Shown: positions 40,698-52,315 of the stretch, one piece after another
How positions within the stretch are numbered: position 1 is the stretch's first letter
Layout of the letters: each line of letters begins with the position of its first letter
From: Trypanosoma brucei
Lineage: Eukaryota
Length of the DNA: 64,000 nucleotides
Direction: 5' to 3'
Assembly (NCBI GenBank): GCA_000002445.1
Contig: CH464491.1
Location: 2,208,001-2,272,000, forward strand
The notes under the pieces: model-generated
What the model was told of the DNA's origin: nothing
The model's input: the letters and a program-made list of their open reading frames with translations, nothing else
Database searches by the model: none
Position numbers and translations under genes: made by a program

Positions 40698-43600
40698 ATG
40701 ACGAGTATCGAACAGATTGAAATCAGCGGAGTGCGCAGCTTCGACCCTAATCCAAATAACCGTCAGCGCATTGTCTTTAAGAAGCCACTCACTGTTATTC
40801 TCGGAAAGAATGGTGCTGGAAAGACAACTATTATTGAGGCACTTCTGAACGCCTGCACGGGTCAAATGCCTCCTGGTGGTGGAACAGAAAAGAGTTCGTT
40901 TGTGTACGACCCAAAGGTTGTGGGTGAGAATGATGTGAAGGCTCAGATCCGCCTTCTTTTCACGGGAAGGGGTGGGAAAGTTATGCAGGTTATTCGCTCG
41001 TTTCAGGCTACACGGACGCGGAATAAAACCACCTTCGCGACGCTCGATAACATTGTCGCCTTCCAAGATTCTGCGACGGGGAAAATCATATCCAGCACAT
41101 ATCGCGCCAATGACGTGGACCGCGCGATTCCAGACATGCTTGGTGTATCTCCTGCGGTATTGGAGCACGTCATATTCTGCCACCAGGAGGATGGAAATTG
41201 GCCCCTCTCCCCCCCGAAGGAAGTGAAGAAGATATTTGACGATATATTTGCAGCCACGCGTTATGTTCTTGCCCTCGACCGTTTGCGGGAGAATAATAAG
41301 GAACTGCGCCGCCAGCAGAAGGAACATGAGGCGAGCTTAATGTCATTGTCAGAGCACAGAGAGCAGGCACGCCAAATATCGGCGGATATTACAGTTAAGG
41401 AGGAGACTGTCGCAGGTATTAAAGCAAAAACGGATGCGCTGGCACCCCAATTGCAGGAACTGCAAGCCATCGCTACTGCTCTAGATAACGTGGAGCATCG
41501 TGCTGAAGGTTTATCTCGAGAAGCAGCTGTCATTGAAGGTCGAATAGGCGAAAAGAGGGAGTCTCTCAGCCGGTTAAACGTTTCCCCGCCCGGATACTCA
41601 CTGGGGGAGTTACTGCAACGCAGGCAGAACTTCGGTGAAAAGTTGAGGGAACTGGAATCCACTGTTTCGACAAAGAAGGAGCTTATGGAACGGGCGGTGG
41701 CGGAGCTTCGCCGTTGTGAAGAAAGTGTTGTGAGCCTCCGCTCCGGTATTGAGTTTCGTGAGAAACAGGAACAGCAGCACAAGAGGGAATGCGAGGAACT
41801 CAAGGTAATAATGAGTGATTTGTCTATGAAATTTGTCATCGATGGGGAGATCAATGAGCATTGTTTGACAAAGATAACGGAATATGTTAATGAGGAACTT
41901 CACAACGAAGAGCAAAAGCGAAGTGGAGAGCTAAATTCCATAGATGCAGGAATTCGTGCTGTAGAGGATAGAAGGTCCACAACACTTCGTGCGATGGACA
42001 CCGAAGGTAAGGAGAAGGAAATGAAAGAGGAGCAGCTCCGTCATCTGATGAAGAGATGTGGCGACGCAAAGGAGGCACTCGGTAAGTTGGCTCCGTACGT
42101 TACCCCTACACGTCTGAAGAATGTGCAGGACACGATTACCGAGTTGGAAAAACGTGTTGAGGCAATGGAGCTGCTGCAAAAGGGTGACGCGAGGTACAGG
42201 CAGCGACAGGACATCTTACAGAGTGTTGAGGCACAAAATAAGGTTGTCGCTCAGTTGCGACAAGAACTGTCCCGACACAAGCAGCGCTCAGGTCGTGAGG
42301 CAGAGATGAATCTCCTTCGTACCCAGATTGCGGAAAAGGAGGAAATTATCAACAACCGACTGCAGGAAGAGCTAATTGCAGGACTCAATGACCTTGGCTG
42401 CAATACAGGCGGATCGCAGACCCTCACAACTGTAACGATGCAAATCGACAAACTGAGGCGCAAGATGGCAGACACGCTTTATAGCGTCGAAGCAGAGGCC
42501 AATGACCTTGATCGCCAGTTGATTGCACTGAAACAGAACCGGTCGCAGTTGGAGGGGAAAATTGTCAGCGAGAATATAGAGCTACAGAGGAAGAGGGTTC
42601 AATGTATCAGCAAACTTGGAAATGATGATGCCCTAACTAACTTTGAGGCGCTTCTAGTGGAGGCGCGTGACAGATATCACAAATTGAATGAGAAGCTTAG
42701 TGGATCTAAAGCATTGGCCGCATGTCACGCCCACTTTGTGGAGCAGGCTAAGGTTGAGGACAAGTGCCCACTCTGTGGTCGTGCTTTTGGCAGTGAGAAT
42801 GAGTTGAATGACTTCTTGGCATCCTTTAAGGTGGGTCAACAAACCTCTGGGAAGGATAGCATAAAAGAGGGTGACGTTGAGAAGGCTCTGCAACGCGTGC
42901 GCGGACTCGAGCAGTTGGAGTCTGATGTAATGGACGTGAGGCGGCTTGCCGATAATGCACCACAACTGGAGGAGTCACTTAAATCTACGATTAAGCAGAT
43001 TCGAGACAAAGAAATTCTCCTGGAGGATGTGCACAACAAACGAGACAAAGTGAAGGACGAAATGCAGCGTGCGCAAAAACTGGTTCAGGCTGCGATGGAG
43101 GTGAATGCCATGACATCTGAGAAGCAGGCACTACTGCAGCAGCTTAACAGACGAGAGGCAGCATGTGCAGAGGCGAGCACATCTTCCGCTAACATTGGGG
43201 GTGCAGGGGAGCCTTGCTGTGCGGGTGAATTAGCGTCACTTTCGTACGAGGAGCTGTCGGACAAGTACGAGTCCGCAAATGCTGAACTTCACCGGTTGAA
43301 TGTGCTTCTAAGTGAAATGCAGAGAGGGGAAGAGGGAGGCTCTGCCCAAGCACTTGTCAAGGAGCTTACAATGAAGCGGTCGGAACTCTGTGAATTGAAA
43401 ATGAAGCTTACTCGTCAAGCCGAGGTTGAGGCAACGATTGCTCAATATGCGGAGCAGGAGGAAGGTTACGTCAGCCGTATTGCTGAAATAGACGACCAAC
43501 GGGAAAAACTGGTGGCCCAACTTGAATCTTACAATAAGGAGTTGGAAGCACTGCATGCAAAGCGGAAGGAGCTTGAGTTGGCGTCTCAACAGGGATACAT

Positions 43601-44747
43601 TGGTCAGCTAAAAAGAACACTAGGACTTCTTTCGGCTGTGCTACCGAGGCTGCGGGATTACATCACTTCAAGGGTTGGCGAAGAGCTCTCAAGAGACAGA
43701 GAGAGCTTGTGTGTGAATGAAAAACGACGAGACACGCAAGCTGAAGAGGTCAAGCTTCTCCGCTTATCAATTGACGACACATTGCGTATAATCAATGAAG
43801 AGCAGCGGCTCAGAGTGGAAGTGGACAAGTACATTGAGTATCTCGAGAAAAAGGGTTCCATAGAGGAAGATGAAAAACGTTTGAGTGATGTTAGGTGCAC
43901 CCTTTCTGAGTTGAAAGTAAATGCTGTGCCCGCTGCAGAAGCCGTCCTCGGAAAGGATGTTGTGGAGAGGGAAAGTGTTGGCCGAATTCGTGAGCTTATT
44001 CGCGGGAAAATCAGTGCGTTGGAGTGCCTTCGTGCTCAGCAAGATGGTGTCGCCGAGGCGATGCGACAGGACATTGAGAGTCTCAAAGGTCAGCTTACTC
44101 GCGATAAGTACAAAGATATTGAAAAGCGCTACCGCACGACCTTCCTGAAGGTCCAGACTACTGAAATTGCGGTTTCGGATGTGGAAAAATATTATCGAGC
44201 GCTGGAAAAGGCAGTGCAGACCTACCACCAAGAGAAGATTGCGCAGATCAATCAAATCTTGGCTGACCTTTGGCGACACACCTACAAGGGAAGCGATATT
44301 GACACCATTGAACTCCGTTCCGAGGATGATGTCACGTCAACTACAGCGAGGCGGAGTTACAGCTATCGTGTGGTGATGAAACGGGGGAACAGTGAAATGG
44401 ACATGCGGGGCCGTTGCAGTGCGGGTCAAAAGGTACTTGCCTCTGTTCTCATCCGACTTGCGCTAAGTGAAGCCTTTTGTTGTGACTGCGGAATTCTTGC
44501 ATTAGATGAGCCGACAACGAATCTTGACGAAGATAACGCGCGTTCTCTTGCGGAGTCGCTACGCATGCTTATTGACAGTCATCGAGCAGTGAAACATTTT
44601 CAGCTTATTGTCATTACTCACGATGAGCACTTCGTCCGCGCGCTAGGAGGCCAGGCACTGGATACTTTTTATTACATTCATAAGGATAGAGAGGGCGCCT
44701 TTTCTGTGATTGAGGAGCGCACTTTCGATCAGTTGTTCGCGAGTTGA
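40698..44747 (+). CDS. RAD50: RAD50 (SMC-like DNA double-strand-break repair ATPase)
   Basis: The 1349-aa product has an N-terminal Walker A LTVILGKNGAGKTTIIEAL, about 900 aa of coiled coil with a central zinc-hook CPLCGR (nt about 42764-42781), and C-terminal signature motif CSAGQKVLASVLIRLAL, Walker B LALDEPTTNLD and a D-loop. Confidence 0.95.
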   Translation: MTSIEQIEISGVRSFDPNPNNRQRIVFKKPLTVILGKNGAGKTTIIEALLNACTGQMPPGGGTEKSSFVYDPKVVGENDVKAQIRLLFTGRGGKVMQVIRSFQATRTRNKTTFATLDNIVAFQDSATGKIISSTYRANDVDRAIPDMLGVSPAVLEHVIFCHQEDGNWPLSPPKEVKKIFDDIFAATRYVLALDRLRENNKELRRQQKEHEASLMSLSEHREQARQISADITVKEETVAGIKAKTDALAPQLQELQAIATALDNVEHRAEGLSREAAVIEGRIGEKRESLSRLNVSPPGYSLGELLQRRQNFGEKLRELESTVSTKKELMERAVAELRRCEESVVSLRSGIEFREKQEQQHKRECEELKVIMSDLSMKFVIDGEINEHCLTKITEYVNEELHNEEQKRSGELNSIDAGIRAVEDRRSTTLRAMDTEGKEKEMKEEQLRHLMKRCGDAKEALGKLAPYVTPTRLKNVQDTITELEKRVEAMELLQKGDARYRQRQDILQSVEAQNKVVAQLRQELSRHKQRSGREAEMNLLRTQIAEKEEIINNRLQEELIAGLNDLGCNTGGSQTLTTVTMQIDKLRRKMADTLYSVEAEANDLDRQLIALKQNRSQLEGKIVSENIELQRKRVQCISKLGNDDALTNFEALLVEARDRYHKLNEKLSGSKALAACHAHFVEQAKVEDKCPLCGRAFGSENELNDFLASFKVGQQTSGKDSIKEGDVEKALQRVRGLEQLESDVMDVRRLADNAPQLEESLKSTIKQIRDKEILLEDVHNKRDKVKDEMQRAQKLVQAAMEVNAMTSEKQALLQQLNRREAACAEASTSSANIGGAGEPCCAGELASLSYEELSDKYESANAELHRLNVLLSEMQRGEEGGSAQALVKELTMKRSELCELKMKLTRQAEVEATIAQYAEQEEGYVSRIAEIDDQREKLVAQLESYNKELEALHAKRKELELASQQGYIGQLKRTLGLLSAVLPRLRDYITSRVGEELSRDRESLCVNEKRRDTQAEEVKLLRLSIDDTLRIINEEQRLRVEVDKYIEYLEKKGSIEEDEKRLSDVRCTLSELKVNAVPAAEAVLGKDVVERESVGRIRELIRGKISALECLRAQQDGVAEAMRQDIESLKGQLTRDKYKDIEKRYRTTFLKVQTTEIAVSDVEKYYRALEKAVQTYHQEKIAQINQILADLWRHTYKGSDIDTIELRSEDDVTSTTARRSYSYRVVMKRGNSEMDMRGRCSAGQKVLASVLIRLALSEAFCCDCGILALDEPTTNLDEDNARSLAESLRMLIDSHRAVKHFQLIVITHDEHFVRALGGQALDTFYYIHKDREGAFSVIEERTFDQLFAS

Positions 44748-46057: not shown

Positions 46058-46987
46058 ATGAGGTCAACTGAGGTCGGGCGTGTTGTGGAGGATTTTATTG
46101 TACTCCCTCCGACACCCAAGTCCAAGTGGAAGTTGTCTGATTTCGAGCTTTTGCACAAACTTGGCGGCGGCAATTACGGGGATGTACACCTCGCCTCCGT
46201 GAAGGATTGCAATTTTGTTTGCGCGCTGAAAAGGTTGTCCATTAAAAAACTTGCGGATTTTGACATTGCGACGCAACTCCGTCGTGAAATTGAGATCGCT
46301 TTTAACACGCGTCACAAGTACCTGCTGCGAACCTATGCATACTTCTTTGACGAAACTGATATTTATCTCATTATGGAGCCATGCAGCAACGGCATGCTTT
46401 ACACGGAACTCAACCGAGTGAAATGCTTTGCGCCACCGACAGCAGCCCGTTACGTGGCTCAGCTCGCTGAAGCCCTCCTCTACTTGCATCAACATCACAT
46501 CCTCCACCGCGACATTAAGCCGGAGAATATTTTACTAGATCACAACAATAACATCAAACTGGCGGATTTCGGTTGGTCAGTCCACGATCCGGATAACCGT
46601 CGCAAGACATCTTGCGGGACGCCAGAGTATTTTCCACCAGAAATTGTGGGACGACAAGCGTACGATACGAGTGCTGACCTTTGGTGCCTGGGCATCTTCT
46701 GTTATGAGCTTCTCGTTGGTAAAACACCGTTTGTTGGAAAGGATACAGACCAAATCTGCAAGAACATTCATTCCATGCACTTCAAAATACCGGAGAATAT
46801 ACCGTCAGAAGCGAAGGACCTCATCGCGAACTTGCTTCTGCGTGATGGGTCACGGAGGCTTGCACTTCACCGTGTCGTGAATCACCAGTTCCTTCTCAAG
46901 TATTATTATCTCCCAAACAATTTACAACCTCCCACTGGAAAGCGTCCGCGTCTCGATGCAGAGCCAACTGCAGGGAAAGAGAATTAA
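46058..46987 (+). CDS. AUK1: Aurora kinase
   Basis: The 309-aa product has [12 protein letters not shown] and the Aurora activation-loop signature [30 protein letters not shown] (human AURKA: [30 protein letters not shown]). The symbol AUK1 is inferred from the 309-aa length and from synteny with RAD51 and RAD50 as I remember it in T. brucei; it is not verified. Confidence 0.88.
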   Translation: [309 protein letters not shown]

Positions 46988-48202: not shown

Positions 48203-49396
48203 ATGGAGTTCTCTGGATCTACATTATCCGTTGTGGAGGTCGAGCACACCGTTAGGCAACTGCGCCCATTTCCCCTTCAAGATATCGGAACGGCAGAGTG
48301 GAAGAATCAGCGGGAAGCCGTGGAGCGACTCAACATGTGCACTCATAGTAACGCCGTTCTGAAAAAAGACGATACAGTTAAGGCATTTCTCATAGAACAT
48401 GAAAAGCTTCCTGTGTTACTGCACGAGTTGTTGGTTATGGAAGTGTGGCGGCAGCGTGTGCTTCCATTGATAAAGGACCAAATAGTCCAGCATCCAGCTG
48501 GCATTTACATGTACGTGCAGTACGAGATGGTGTTGCTAAACCTCTTCGAGTGCATCGCATTTCACGAGGAAGTTGTGGTGGCTCTTGACGAGGATGTATT
48601 GGAGTTAATTGACTACTGTTGGCGACAGGCTTCGAGACTTTTCGCAGAGCAGAATGTCAACGAAGTGCAGAGCAAACCAACAGCCCGGGATGTTAGCAAC
48701 GCTGCGAATACGGTGGAGGAGGTCCTCAAAAGTGCGGACCGGCAGATGCTTCATGCCATTTATCAGCGTGCAATGGCTTCCCTTTCTATCCTGTGGTTTA
48801 TCATCGATCGGTTGAACCAACTTCCTCTCGCGGCGTCCAACTCGGTTCTCGTGAAGAACGATCTCATTCTTGGACTTACGGAGGTGATGTTGCTTCAGCC
48901 GTGGTTACGGCGCTCCTCAGAGGCAACACAGAAGTTTTTCAACGGTGAGTTCAAAGACATTCCGCGGGCTGATGTATTGCTTGTTTGTACGCCTGAGGCC
49001 CACACATGGTTTTCGCTCCATAAACTACTTTGTGACCCGGAGTGCCGGCGGCGGTACTCGTATACACAAAGCAAGAAGGAACTCATCCTGCGCATTCGAC
49101 ATTTTCTTAATGACACCCTCGTTGATCAAATACCAGCTCTTGCGAGCTTGCAGAGGGCGCTTGAGGAGCTTTCGTTTCTCCAACCGCCCAGCGGAACAGA
49201 AGAAAAGTTTAAAAGCACTCTTACGATTGAGCAGGTCCCACGTATCATGACGTTGGTGGAGGTGGAGAGAAAAGGGAGTTGGGACGATCTCGCGTCCACG
49301 TTACGTGCCATGCTGCAGGACCCGAGTGTTCGCAACGAGGACGCGATGAGGTTATCGAGAATATTTGACGAAATGTTTTCCGATCAGTTGAAGTAA
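48203..49396 (+). CDS. ZMYND10: ZMYND10/DNAAF7-like protein (axonemal dynein-arm assembly factor homolog) lacking the C-terminal MYND finger
   Basis: The N-terminus [30 protein letters not shown]...[22 protein letters not shown] aligns with human ZMYND10 [30 protein letters not shown]...[32 protein letters not shown] matches LDLVDYCHRK, and [23 protein letters not shown] matches [23 protein letters not shown]. The ORF stops at 397 aa without any Cys/His cluster. Confidence 0.7.
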   Translation: [397 protein letters not shown]

Positions 49397-49565
49397 CGAA
49401 CATCTGATATATCCACATGCGATGAAACCATCCGGGTCTGCGTGTCAAAATGGCTGAGGTAAGAAATTACAGACCTAGAAAGGAGGTACAGAGTTATAAT
49501 ATATACATATTGGGTGGATACTGAAGGATAGTGCGGCCCGTTTGTTTTACCCCATATTTTTTCAG

Positions 49566-49596
49566 CACACACACACACACACTCTCTCTCCCTCTT
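49566..49596. repeat. Compound (CA)n(CT)n microsatellite
   Basis: The sequence cacacacacacacacactctctctccctc was read directly from the window. Confidence 0.9.
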
Positions 49597-50113
49597 TCAT
49601 TTCTTACCTTTTCATTTTACTTAATTCTTATGGCAACGGCCACTGCTGCCTTTCCGTTGTGTGGAAAAAGTATGTCAGCATCTTTGATCTCCTGAAAGGG
49701 GAGTAGCAAGGGAGGAGTTGAATAATTGTAGACGATAGTTCACGGCACGGGTAAACGTACCGTAATAAGGACGCGCAACAAACTGTGTGTAGTTGTGTGT
49801 GTCTATCTTATAGTTTCGTGCGTGTGACGTTTTTTTTTTTAGATTCCAGTTCTTATAGAATAATAGAGCGGGGGGTTGGGCGAGGGGGTGTGCAAAAAGT
49901 TATATATATATATATATACCAGATCCTGCAGGCAGGTTCTTCGCACTGCAGCTCTGAAGTGAGAAAGCTAAGGCGGTTGGCGTAGGGGGAACTGATATAA
50001 GATATACAGTGAAAGTTGTTCTTTGAGAAAGTAAGAGGTGGACGGAGGTGAGGCGCTAGGACTAATAGTGGCGCCTGATATATTGTGCGACATTCGGTGT
50101 ATGTTAGAAGGGC

Positions 50114-52315
50114 ATGTCTGATGTTCCGGAGCTTCCGTCATTTGAGGCGGCGGACGTTGACGACCGTCCGCCACCTCCATCGATCAGTGACTACCCCATA
50201 GGCTGTGAGGTGGGTCTCGTGGATATCAACATTGCCAAGGTGGCACAGACGGAGGAGTTGTGGGAGCCTTTCATGGACCACTTCTTTACTCAAGGAAGAC
50301 GGACGGTGCGGGTGGTGAGACACCAGGGCGATTATACCTTTGTGGTAAGCGAGGAAGATTCCATGATTGTGGGTTGCACATTGTACCGTGCCTGTCTTTG
50401 TGAACCTAAGGTGCGCATCGGTAAGTACGGTGGCACCAATGCCATAGTTTTAGGGTGTGACAGCACACACTCCATTGAGAGACGCACTTCCGGTTTGTCT
50501 GTCGTGACGGATCGTGAAGGTGATGCGGTGTGGGGCCCTGACTCGCCATTTCCTGATGGCGCAGCTGCCGATGGGGCCCCGGTGCCTGAATTTACGCCCC
50601 CAAGAGAGTCTGAGATTCCTTCGGACTGCCTCGAACGTGGGGGCCCATGTGTGCAGGAGCAACCAACGAAAGGGCAGGCCACACTGGAGGAGCGACGGTA
50701 CAATTCTGCGTTAATGAAGGCCTACGATGCTAGGATGAGGAAGGATTATAGTGAAGCCGTGCGGTACTGCACCAAGGCGTTGAGGCATTGTCCCAGTGGC
50801 TGTGTGAGAGCATTAGCTAACCGTTCAGCTATGTACCTGAGCATGCGTGACCCGAAAGCGGCCCTTGCGGATGCTCTTAAGGTGATTGAGCTGATGCCCA
50901 GCAACTATGTAGGCTACGTTCGCGCGGGTAATGCCATGCGTGGATTGAAGCGGAATGGAGAGGCACGGAACTTTTACCAGGAGGCACTAAAGTTGGACCC
51001 AAACAACGAAACAATTAAGTATCTAGAAAAAGATAACGCGGTGCTGATGGTGTACGCCTCGAGGCGGCGCAGAGGGCAGCATGCCTACGTTAGTGTGGAT
51101 CGATCGACCCTTAATATCATTCTCGTATCGGGGAAGGATCAGTGTGCAGGTGACGTAGCCTGGGAAGAAATAACGTCTATTGTAGCTCCACTCGGTGAGA
51201 CTGCGGATCTTTGCGATGCATCAGCGTGTATTTGCCCCCCACACGTGTGTGGAAACTGTTACCGACCACTTACCAAAGTCGAGGATTTCTTCAACTCTCT
51301 TGTAGGTGTGGAGCTTAGTCTCTTGAATGAGCTGTACAGCGGATGCAATGCTGTAAGTTGTACTTACAGCTGTGGCACCGTGTTCTGCTCAGAGAATTGT
51401 CGTACGAAGGGTTGGGCTTCTCACCACTGGATAGAATGCCCTGTTATCGGCAAGTGGCGTGAAGCATTTAAGAATATACCTGCTGTTTACAGATCGTTCT
51501 ACGCTGATTGTGCGTCCCACATAAATATGGTGACACCTGCAAAGGAGCAGGCAAACGGCTCGACAGATGGCCGTGATGGTTCCAGCAATTATGACGGCCC
51601 GTTTGCTTCACTTGCCTTATCTGTGGAGGGTAACCTAACTCAGGCACTGATTGCGTGCTGTCGACTTGCTTGCCGTATGTTTGTGGATGCCGTTAGTCGT
51701 GGACAGGCACTGAAGGATGTGGTCCTGCCATACAATTGGTTGTTGCCAGAAGATTGTAGCTACGTTCGTGTGACTGACGAAGGGGCAGCCAATAACGTGT
51801 TCACCCTAATCGCTAACAAGATGCTTAGACCCGTTTACGTATCACTTGAGCGGTGCTTTGATAACGAAGAGGGGGAATATCTTTCATTTGAGCTCTTCCT
51901 TCGCTTTTTTGAGCGAGCCCGCTTCAACAGCATCAAGTTACGCACATCATTGTGGCCCACCGTGCAGAAGGAAGCAAGGTGCTACAAGGAGCGACCCGCA
52001 GGTTTCGGTACCACAGAAATCGTAGGAGGACGAAATGTAGGTGTCTCTCTGGACCGGCAGTTGGAACACATTCAGTCGGCCCAAGCGACCTCTGTTGCGG
52101 GTTATTACGAGTACCTTGCGCTTTTTACCGCCTTTCCGGCGGCTTTCTCTCCACAACCGACCCGAAGTAAGCGAAACTTGGAGTCGTCGCGTCACAACTT
52201 GAATTTGAGGTTGGATATCGAGTCCTCTGCGATGATTCGAGCGGATGCAATTGAATATATTGCCGAAGGCGAGCAAATGGCTGTGGATCGATTGACTACA
52301 ACATATTTTGTGTAG
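50114..52315 (+). CDS. TPR-repeat protein with an internal MYND-type zinc finger
   Basis: The 733-aa product has TPR-like repeats at about aa 200-300 (AVRYCTKALRHCPSG...AALADALKVIELMPSNYVGYVRAGNAMRGLKRNGEARNFYQEALKLDPNNE). It also has a Cys/His cluster CGNC...CTYSCGTVFCSENCRTKGWASHHWIEC whose second half matches MYND, Y/FC-x3-C-x4-W-x2-HH/K-x3-C (compare ZMYND10 YCCRECQVKHWEKHGKTC). Confidence 0.65.
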   Translation: MSDVPELPSFEAADVDDRPPPPSISDYPIGCEVGLVDINIAKVAQTEELWEPFMDHFFTQGRRTVRVVRHQGDYTFVVSEEDSMIVGCTLYRACLCEPKVRIGKYGGTNAIVLGCDSTHSIERRTSGLSVVTDREGDAVWGPDSPFPDGAAADGAPVPEFTPPRESEIPSDCLERGGPCVQEQPTKGQATLEERRYNSALMKAYDARMRKDYSEAVRYCTKALRHCPSGCVRALANRSAMYLSMRDPKAALADALKVIELMPSNYVGYVRAGNAMRGLKRNGEARNFYQEALKLDPNNETIKYLEKDNAVLMVYASRRRRGQHAYVSVDRSTLNIILVSGKDQCAGDVAWEEITSIVAPLGETADLCDASACICPPHVCGNCYRPLTKVEDFFNSLVGVELSLLNELYSGCNAVSCTYSCGTVFCSENCRTKGWASHHWIECPVIGKWREAFKNIPAVYRSFYADCASHINMVTPAKEQANGSTDGRDGSSNYDGPFASLALSVEGNLTQALIACCRLACRMFVDAVSRGQALKDVVLPYNWLLPEDCSYVRVTDEGAANNVFTLIANKMLRPVYVSLERCFDNEEGEYLSFELFLRFFERARFNSIKLRTSLWPTVQKEARCYKERPAGFGTTEIVGGRNVGVSLDRQLEHIQSAQATSVAGYYEYLALFTAFPAAFSPQPTRSKRNLESSRHNLNLRLDIESSAMIRADAIEYIAEGEQMAVDRLTTTYFV

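What the first reader, a model, noticed from the sequence alone, without database searches (positions are those of the whole stretch)
48203..52315. ZMYND10 ortholog has lost its MYND finger, while the adjacent downstream gene carries a MYND-like finger plus TPRs
The 397-aa protein is co-linear with the N-terminal and central part of human ZMYND10/DNAAF7, a cytoplasmic assembly factor for axonemal dynein arms. It terminates cleanly with no Cys/His cluster. In metazoan ZMYND10 the C-terminal MYND domain mediates interaction with client chaperones. The next gene 0.7 kb downstream encodes a TPR protein with a Cys/His cluster whose second half fits the MYND consensus and contains a roughly 30-aa insertion. 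Two explanations are possible. Either trypanosomes use a MYND-less ZMYND10, or the MYND function has been partitioned onto a neighbouring co-transcribed gene, perhaps by ancient fission or by an annotation or frameshift issue. The first would be informative for the mechanism of dynein pre-assembly.
Basis: partly seen in the sequence, partly recalled or inferred. Interest (0 to 1): 0.55.

Follow-up and report, generated by a model that had tools for sequence, protein, structure and literature searches.

The report
MYND-less ZMYND10 beside a SMYD5-like gene
Trypanosoma brucei's version of the cilia-motor assembly factor ZMYND10 really does lack its zinc finger, as in all its kinetoplastid relatives, but the finger in the neighbouring gene belongs to an unrelated SMYD5-type protein and was not split off from ZMYND10.

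Summary
The window is T. brucei TREU927 chromosome 11. ORF A (48203-49396, 397 aa, Q384J6) matches human ZMYND10/DNAAF7 at E 3e-62. It is co-linear with human residues 6-393 and stops exactly where the human MYND domain (394-430) begins. All 65 kinetoplastid-type relatives (41-99% identical) also lack a MYND. The 717-bp spacer holds no degraded finger. The loss is therefore old and real, not a frameshift. ORF B (50114-52315, 733 aa, Tb927.11.8240) has three TPRs and eight invariant zinc ligands. Its finger is SMYD5-type: the C-terminal half aligns end to end with SET-and-MYND proteins (hhalign 99.7%, E 2e-25). It shares their roughly 33-residue insertion between the first two ligand pairs. It scores 30-42 bits on SMYD5-like fingers and at most 5.7 bits on ZMYND10 fingers. 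B lacks the NHSC motif, the catalytic Tyr and the post-SET cysteines, so it is probably an inactive pseudo-methyltransferase scaffold. The A-then-B order is conserved in five further divergent contigs, but upstream RAD50 and AUK1 are conserved too. Fission is not supported. Functional coupling in trans is untested. Interest is modest.

The parts
48203..49396 (+). ORF A: MYND-less ZMYND10/DNAAF7 ortholog (397 aa; XP_828897.1 / Q384J6; by gene order probably Tb927.11.8230). The predicted fold is an armadillo-type helical solenoid.
49397..50113 (.). Intergenic spacer with microsatellites and pyrimidine tracts. It contains no degraded MYND.
   Evidence: Six-frame translation shows stops throughout and no Cys/His cluster.
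50114..52315 (+). ORF B: Tb927.11.8240 (733 aa; XP_828898.1 / Q384J5, 'hypothetical protein, conserved'). It is a TPR plus SMYD5-like protein.
   Evidence: ORF. Accessions. The TrypTag tagging primer matches 52253-52312 exactly, and the recorded localisation is 'cytoplasm[points,weak]'.
50162..50413 (+). B aa ~17-100: conserved beta-rich N-terminal domain of unknown family (DRPPPP..DYPIGCEV...RHQGDYTFV...TLYRACL).
   Evidence: Many invariant columns. pLDDT about 55-77 with four strands. No Pfam hit. It is also recognisable in L006.
50681..51064 (+). B aa ~190-317: three-TPR domain of the Hsp70/Hsp90 co-chaperone structural class.
51077..51193 (+). B aa ~322-360: beta strands equivalent to the N-terminal S-sequence of a split SET domain.
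   Evidence: Strands E324-359. They align to the GRG...E.P segment of SET+MYND proteins.
51248..51439 (+). B aa 379-442: SMYD5-type MYND zinc finger (C4-C2HC). The 33-residue insertion between ligand pairs 1 and 2 lies at aa 383-415, nt 51260-51358.
   Evidence: Eight invariant ligands. Pattern scan. Pfam scores. Spacing comparison. HMM scores. The M-insertion of SMYD5 is described in PMC9221539.
51458..52312 (+). B aa ~449-733: helical SET-I-like region and degenerate core SET. It has no NHSC motif, no catalytic Tyr and no post-SET Cys cluster.
   Evidence: hhalign against SMYD5-like proteins gives probability 99.7%, E 2.1e-25 over 300 columns. The invariant columns hold no His, Cys or Tyr in this region. 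No Pfam SET hit.
40698..44747 (+). Context: 1349-aa RAD50-like gene, syntenic with A in divergent contigs.
   Evidence: tblastn to L002 and L003. SMC_N/AAA_23/SbcC Pfam on the counterparts. Not itself scanned against Pfam here.
46058..46987 (+). Context: Aurora kinase AUK1 (309 aa; Tb927.11.8220 by gene order).
   Evidence: Pfam Pkinase E 2.8e-63. Ortholog in L003. The gene identifier comes from PMC6445472 and is assigned here by gene order, from my own knowledge.

Best explanation
These are two independent genes that lie side by side in an old kinetoplastid gene block. Gene A is the ortholog of the axonemal dynein assembly factor ZMYND10/DNAAF7. The kinetoplastid lineage lost the C-terminal MYND finger before the lineages sampled here diverged. 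What remains is the armadillo-type helical body plus the short C-terminal helices. I infer that A still acts as a cytoplasmic scaffold for folding and assembly of dynein arms, using surfaces outside the MYND. Gene B is not a piece of ZMYND10. It is a TPR domain fused to a SMYD5-like split SET domain, and its MYND finger sits between the S-sequence and SET-I as in all SMYD proteins. The finger carries the SMYD5-specific long insertion. B has lost the SET cofactor and catalytic motifs and the post-SET zinc site. It is therefore most likely a non-catalytic protein-binding scaffold in the cytoplasm. Shown here: the homologies, the domain loss, the finger type and the conserved gene order. Inferred: A's retained dynein-assembly role, B's lack of catalysis, and the absence of a special link between A and B.
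For: A is homologous to human ZMYND10 and ends at the MYND boundary. [quoted passage not shown] None of 65 relatives has a MYND, whereas P0066 has one scoring 38.4 bits. The spacer holds no remnant. A's model is confident (pLDDT 88.6) and ARM-like, resembling among others the chaperone-linked ARM proteins HspBP1, Sil1, She4, Hgh1 and Ric-8A. An exhaustive HMMER search with B's C-terminal half found 187 proteins. Of 68 distant hits scanned, 35 carry Pfam SET, 30 carry zf-MYND and 14 carry TPR, although the TPR was not in the query. One hit is named SMYD5. The profile-profile alignment spans the whole half (99.7%, E 2e-25). The ligand spacing is identical to SMYD5-like proteins, with a first loop of 32-42 residues against 7 in ZMYND10. 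The B-finger HMM scores 30-42 bits on SMYD5-like fingers, 24-34 bits with the insertion removed, and at most 5.7 bits on ZMYND10 fingers. PMC9221539 describes the same insertion and the extra residue before the His in SMYD5. The A-then-B order recurs in L002, L004, L005, a 6153-bp contig and L006, together with upstream RAD50, kinase and RING genes. TrypTag places B in cytoplasmic points. Mali et al. cite medaka deletion mutants as still capable of functional rescue and conclude that the FKBP8 interface extends beyond the MYND (PMC6044906).
Against: In mammalian cells the MYND matters. ZMYND10 p.Gln366*, which lacks it, fails to bind or stabilise DNAI1 (PMC5895051). W423A abolishes FKBP8 and HSP90 binding (PMC6044906). 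A MYND-less protein doing the same job therefore needs another contact, which I have not identified. No functional data for A in any kinetoplastid turned up in the searches. The A-B adjacency survives changes in the genes between RAD50 and A, and detectable synteny downstream of B is lost, so it is at least as stable as its surroundings. The SMYD-like comparison set was itself selected with B's profile, which inflates its scores. B's model is only moderately confident (pLDDT 69), and the fold searches were swamped by the TPR, so the SET fold is supported by profiles and not by a structural match.
Confidence: 0.8

Rival explanations
1. Functional partition in trans. After ZMYND10 lost its finger, the neighbouring TPR-MYND protein B binds A, or A's partners, and supplies the MYND and TPR chaperone-recruiting surfaces. 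In mammals these come from the ZMYND10 MYND together with the TPR protein FKBP8.
For: The A-then-B order is conserved in every divergent contig with enough flank except L001. B combines a MYND-type finger with a TPR whose closest structural matches are Hsp70/Hsp90-binding TPRs, including the dynein assembly factors SPAG1 and RPAP3. B is cytoplasmic and punctate in TrypTag. B appears to have lost catalysis, which fits a pure adaptor role.
Against: Kinetoplastid genes are transcribed in long polycistronic units, so adjacency does not imply co-regulation (established knowledge). RAD50 and AUK1 are conserved in the same block. In L001 the A ortholog has no B within 10 kb. B's finger is SMYD5-type and scores near zero against ZMYND10 fingers. 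From the alignment, read by eye, only about 2 of the 5 carboxylate-clamp positions of HOP-type TPRs are kept (N236 and R270, while the HOP K73 position is V266). Canonical EEVD binding is therefore doubtful. There is no interaction or phenotype data.
Confidence: 0.1
2. Ancient gene fission. An ancestral ZMYND10 split, and its MYND exon was captured by the downstream gene.
For: A ends exactly at the MYND boundary. The next gene on the same strand has a MYND-like finger.
Against: B's finger lies 379 residues into B, behind an N-terminal domain and a TPR, and inside a split SET domain that aligns end to end with SMYD5-like proteins. The first-loop length is 33 in B against 7 in ZMYND10. HMM scores on ZMYND10 fingers are at most 5.7 bits. 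Mollusc SET+MYND proteins with an N-terminal TPR show that this combination exists without any ZMYND10 link.
Confidence: 0.02
3. Sequencing frameshift, premature stop or annotation error in this assembly hides a MYND at the 3' end of A.
For: None found.
Against: Proteins of identical length occur in T. b. brucei, T. b. gambiense, T. equiperdum and in independent read assemblies. All 65 relatives end at the same place. No finger remnant occurs in any frame of the spacer.
Confidence: 0.01

Closest known systems
ZMYND10 / DNAAF7 (human NP_056980.2; axonemal dynein assembly factor, mutated in primary ciliary dyskinesia)
   Same: A shares 32% identity with it and is co-linear with human residues 6-393. 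It is the same single helical, ARM-like body. Sequence databases already give A this name.
   Different: A has no C-terminal MYND finger. In mammals that finger is needed for DNAI1 stabilisation and for FKBP8/HSP90 binding. The loss is shared by all kinetoplastid-type relatives found.
[quoted passage not shown]
   Same: B's C-terminal half has the same order of elements: S-sequence, MYND, SET-I, core SET. It has the same long insertion between the first and second zinc-ligand pairs and the same C-x3-C-x8-H-x3-C second half. Like SMYD5, it has no TPR-like C-terminal domain.
   Different: B has an extra conserved N-terminal domain and a true three-repeat TPR in front. It lacks the NHSC motif, the catalytic Tyr and the post-SET cysteines. 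It does not reach the Pfam SET or, in T. brucei, the zf-MYND thresholds. I saw no poly-E tract, although I did not look for one specifically.
Mollusc TPR-SET-MYND proteins (P0137 Argonauta, P0153 Argopecten, P0155 Lottia)
   Same: They have an N-terminal TPR followed by a split SET domain with an inserted long-loop MYND, and a similar total length of 709-730 aa.
   Different: They keep a Pfam-detectable SET domain and carry a second, canonical MYND at the C-terminus. Whether the TPR fusion is shared ancestry or convergence was not tested.
Hsp70/Hsp90-binding TPR co-chaperones (HOP TPR1, SGT, PP5, RPAP3, SPAG1, FKBP8)
   Different: The carboxylate-clamp residues are only partly kept, as read by eye. 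EEVD binding has not been shown.

Membership tests
ZMYND10 / DNAAF7 | Homologous helical body, co-linear with metazoan ZMYND10 | tested here: met
   BLASTP E 3e-62. hhalign probability 100%, A 7-397 against human 6-393.
ZMYND10 / DNAAF7 | C-terminal MYND zinc finger (Pfam PF01753) | tested here: not met
   No Pfam hit. No Cys/His pattern in A, in 65 relatives or in the spacer. The family name therefore overstates what A contains. A is an ortholog of the body only.
ZMYND10 / DNAAF7 | [quoted passage not shown] | not testable with these tools
   The literature searches found no kinetoplastid functional data.
MYND zinc finger (PF01753), applied to B | Eight zinc ligands in C4-C2HC order | tested here: met
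   C379, C382, C416, C420, C425, C429, H438 and C442 are invariant in 16 orthologs.
MYND zinc finger (PF01753), applied to B | Score above the Pfam gathering threshold (22.7 bits) | tested here: inconclusive
   The T. brucei finger scores 9.3 bits, or 13.1 bits with the insertion removed. The finger of ortholog P0077 scores 28.1 bits. 9 of 13 orthologs hit at E<=1, best 6.5e-5.
SMYD family (SET domain split by MYND), SMYD5 type | MYND inserted between the S-sequence and SET-I/core SET | tested here: met
   The profile-profile alignment covers all these elements. Distant homologs carry Pfam SET spanning the finger, for example P0155 SET 323-643 with MYND 396-426.
SMYD family (SET domain split by MYND), SMYD5 type | Long insertion between the first and second ligand pairs, and one extra residue before the His | tested here: met
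   The first loop is 32-33 residues in the B family and 32-42 in SMYD5-like hits, and both have C-x8-H. The feature is described for SMYD5 in PMC9221539.
SMYD family (SET domain split by MYND), SMYD5 type | SET cofactor and catalytic motifs (NHSCxPN, GEExxxY Tyr) and the post-SET Cys cluster | tested here: not met
   Only the second Asn (N695) and a G-x-Q-L remnant align. No His, Cys or Tyr is conserved there, and the protein ends about 10 residues after the remnant. No Pfam SET hit. B is therefore filed as SMYD5-like, not as a SMYD enzyme.
SMYD family (SET domain split by MYND), SMYD5 type | Lysine methyltransferase activity | not testable with these tools
   This needs a biochemical assay.
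EEVD-binding TPR co-chaperones | Three-TPR fold | tested here: met
EEVD-binding TPR co-chaperones | Two-carboxylate clamp (Lys, Asn, Asn, Lys, Arg) | tested here: inconclusive
   Read by eye from the HMMER alignment to STIP1, N236 and R270 align with clamp residues. V266 replaces the Lys, and the first-helix Lys and Asn positions appear to be L200 and Y204. No structure-based alignment was made.

The most novel reading that the evidence does not exclude
B (Tb927.11.8240) is a kinetoplastid-specific dynein pre-assembly adaptor. It is a catalytically dead SMYD5-like scaffold whose MYND finger and TPR work in trans with the MYND-less ZMYND10 next door. On this reading it replaces the ZMYND10-MYND/FKBP8-TPR link to Hsp90 that operates in animals.
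Probability: 0.08. Interest if true: 0.65.

Novelty: new variant of a known kind. Interest (0 to 1): 0.3.

Why it matters
ZMYND10 is a human ciliopathy gene, and the role of its MYND finger is disputed. Patient-type truncation and point mutants lose client and FKBP8 binding, yet Mali et al. cite medaka deletion mutants as still capable of functional rescue. A whole flagellated lineage that has kept the ZMYND10 body for hundreds of millions of years without the finger is a natural deletion experiment. If A is still needed for dynein arms in T. brucei or Leishmania, the core function lies in the ARM-like body, and both organisms are genetically tractable for testing this. Separately, B is an uncharacterised, conserved TPR plus SMYD5-like pseudo-enzyme. 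Neither point changes current understanding unless the experiments are done, and the more exciting fission idea is not supported.

Tried and rejected
1. Pfam on full-length B found only TPRs and no MYND or SET. Isolated fingers had to be scanned to see the sub-threshold signal.

2. PDB sequence searches were uninformative for the C-terminal half of B. The searches with B alone and with its full family profile returned only TPR proteins. The C-terminal-half profile gave nothing significant; a MYND protein, ANKMY1, appeared only at E 4.4.

4. The afdb50 library was unavailable, so A's model could not be matched to predicted ZMYND10 structures. I used an exact look-up of the human sequence instead.

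5. The second word-indexed homolog search with the A alignment returned no new ZMYND10 sequences.

6. A first reading suggested that B lay upstream of A in L001. That was my error: one FASTA file holds several loci. It was corrected.

It was rerun without that row.

8. Literature searches for kinetoplastid ZMYND10 function, and for Tb927.11.8230 or Tb927.11.8240 in main texts, found nothing.

9. Downstream synteny beyond B was not detectable by BLAST.


Full report
**What is there.** An exact-sequence look-up identifies the window as Trypanosoma brucei brucei TREU927 chromosome 11. [quoted passage not shown] B is XP_828898.1 / Q384J5, 'hypothetical protein, conserved'. A TrypTag tagging primer for Tb927.11.8240 matches window 52253-52312 exactly. 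B is therefore Tb927.11.8240, and its C-terminally tagged form was scored 'cytoplasm[points,weak]'. The upstream genes are a RAD50-like ORF (40698-44747) and an Aurora kinase (46058-46987; Pfam Pkinase). By gene order the kinase is AUK1, Tb927.11.8220 (identifier from PMC6445472). A is then presumably Tb927.11.8230, which I infer from order and did not verify.

- A matches it at BLASTP E 3e-62, 32% identity, residues 12-364 against 11-353.
- A profile of A's family aligns A 7-397 to human 6-393 of 440. The human MYND ligands start at C394, so A stops at the domain boundary.
- Pfam finds no MYND in A.

**The loss is old and real.**
- The homolog search returned 65 relatives of 367-484 aa at 41-99% identity. 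They come from Trypanosoma, Leishmania, Porcisia, Leptomonas, Novymonas, Phytomonas, Strigomonas, Angomonas and many unnamed assemblies.
- None has a precomputed MYND. The next hit, P0066 (27% identity, 451 aa), does, and its finger scores 38.4 bits on Pfam zf-MYND.
- In the alignment all kinetoplastid-type sequences end, or continue with non-Cys tails, where P0066's finger begins.
- A pattern scan of all 66 sequences finds a MYND-like cluster only in P0066.
- The spacer has stop codons in every frame and no Cys/His cluster. The only full MYND-like pattern in the 64-kb window is the one in B.
- Proteins of identical length occur in several T. brucei subspecies and in independent read assemblies.

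A frameshift or annotation artefact is excluded. I could not name the organisms behind the most divergent contigs, so I cannot say how deep in Euglenozoa the loss lies.

**B's finger is a MYND, but of SMYD5 type.**
- The ligands are C379-x2-C382-x33-C416-x3-C420-x4-C425-x3-C429-x8-H438-x3-C442, and all eight are invariant in 16 orthologs.
- The T. brucei finger fails the Pfam threshold (9.3 bits, or 13.1 bits with the insertion deleted, against 22.7). The finger of ortholog P0077 passes at 28.1 bits. Nine of 13 orthologs hit at E<=1.
- I ran an exhaustive HMMER search of 1.84 billion representatives with a profile of B's C-terminal half only, residue 318 to the end, which excludes the TPR. It found 187 proteins. 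Beyond the kinetoplastid orthologs these mostly match the strands plus the finger.
- Of 68 such proteins scanned, 35 carry Pfam SET, 30 carry zf-MYND and 14 carry TPR.
- Individual examples have a SET domain that spans the finger, which is the SMYD architecture. One is named SMYD5, and three mollusc proteins are TPR-SET-MYND.
- Profile-profile alignment of B's half against 16 of these gives probability 99.7%, E 2.1e-25 over 300 columns. It runs from the S-sequence through the finger and SET-I to the core SET.
- The first loop is 32-33 residues in the B family and 32-42 in the SMYD5-like set, but 7 in human ZMYND10 and in P0066.
- An HMM of B's finger scores 30-42 bits on the SMYD5-like fingers, and 24-34 bits with the insertion removed. 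It scores at most 5.7 bits on the two ZMYND10 fingers. The comparison set was chosen with B's profile, so its high scores are partly expected. The low ZMYND10 scores are independent of that choice.

**B is probably not an enzyme.** In the alignment to SET-competent relatives the NHSC motif has no counterpart. Only the second Asn (N695) and a G-x-Q-L remnant of GEEL survive. The Tyr that follows is absent, and the protein ends before any post-SET Cys cluster. Pfam SET is not detected in any of the 13 orthologs. I therefore call B SMYD5-like and predict a non-catalytic scaffold. This is inference.

**B's other domains.**
- From the sequence alignment, read by eye, only about two of the five carboxylate-clamp positions are kept. 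EEVD binding is therefore uncertain.
- The conserved N-terminal domain (about aa 17-100) has no family assignment.
- B's whole-protein model is only moderately confident (pLDDT 69). The fold searches were swamped by the TPR, so the SET assignment rests on profiles and not on a structural match.

**Gene order.**
- The order A then B, on the same strand, recurs in L002, L004, L005, a 6153-bp contig and L006, where only B's N-terminal domain is recognisable.
- It also recurs in T. congolense (consecutive locus numbers) and in a EukProt genome (consecutive gene numbers).
- In those five contigs the A orthologs are 41-51% identical to T. brucei A.
- The same contigs also keep RAD50-like, kinase and RING genes upstream. 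A-B is therefore part of a longer conserved block.
- In L001 the A ortholog (42% identical) has no B within 10 kb.
- Downstream of B no similarity was detected.
- Kinetoplastid genes lie in long polycistronic units, which is established knowledge, so adjacency alone says nothing about co-regulation.

**Interpretation.** The second option, fission or frameshift, is not supported, because the neighbour's finger belongs to a different and older architecture.

A trans partnership remains possible but has no evidence beyond adjacency and domain content. I give it about 0.1.

The mammalian literature is mixed on how much the finger matters:
- p.Gln366* fails to bind or stabilise DNAI1 (PMC5895051).
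- W423A loses FKBP8 and HSP90 binding (PMC6044906).
- The same paper notes that the interface extends beyond the MYND, and cites medaka deletion mutants as still capable of functional rescue.

The kinetoplastid protein fits the view that the core function lies in the helical body. No kinetoplastid functional data were found.

**Verdict.** This is a correct and careful observation. The ZMYND10 domain loss is a genuine lineage-wide variant of a known factor and is worth a knockout experiment. The neighbour is an uncharacterised TPR plus SMYD5-like pseudo-enzyme. The link between them is most likely coincidental. Interest is modest.

Noticed in passing
window 50162-50413 (B aa ~17-100): B has a strongly conserved, beta-rich N-terminal domain (DRPPPP..DYPIGCEV..LVD...WEPFMD...RHQGDYTFV...TLYRACL) with no Pfam family. 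It is the only part of B still recognisable in the low-complexity-expanded ortholog in L006.
   Followed up: partly
proteins P0137, P0153, P0155 (Argonauta, Argopecten, Lottia): These mollusc proteins of 709-730 aa combine an N-terminal TPR, a split SET with a long-loop MYND and a second canonical C-terminal MYND. This is the same TPR plus SMYD5-like layout as B. Whether it reflects shared ancestry or convergence is unknown.
   Followed up: partly
window 40698-44747 and 46058-46987; L002-L005: A RAD50-like gene and the Aurora kinase AUK1 lie upstream of A, and this order is kept in divergent contigs. A small RING-finger gene sits between the kinase and A in L003, L004 and the 6153-bp contig, but no ORF of at least 100 aa is present on the + strand of the T. 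brucei window between 46987 and 48203.
   Followed up: partly
window 49397-50113: The spacer contains (CA)n, (TC)n-rich and (TA)n microsatellites and a T11 run. These are typical trypanosome intergenic signals for trans-splicing and polyadenylation. The sites themselves were not mapped.
   Followed up: no
L006 1538-5974: The gene after the A ortholog in this AT-rich contig (40% GC) runs for at least 1478 codons. It starts with B's N-terminal domain and is then filled with Asn/Ser/His low-complexity runs. No finger was found before the contig ends.
   Followed up: partly
window 50114-52315, B aa 411: T. brucei and T. congolense B carry an extra Cys (C411) just before the third ligand. A naive pattern scan therefore reads the spacing as x28/x4/x8 instead of the family's x33/x3/x4. 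This, together with sequence divergence, may be why the T. brucei finger scores lowest on Pfam zf-MYND.
   Followed up: partly
L004, L005 and the 6153-bp contig: Intergenic spacers in these divergent kinetoplastid-type contigs are only about 100-280 bp, against 717 bp between A and B in T. brucei. This suggests much more compact genomes. The organisms were not identified.
   Followed up: no
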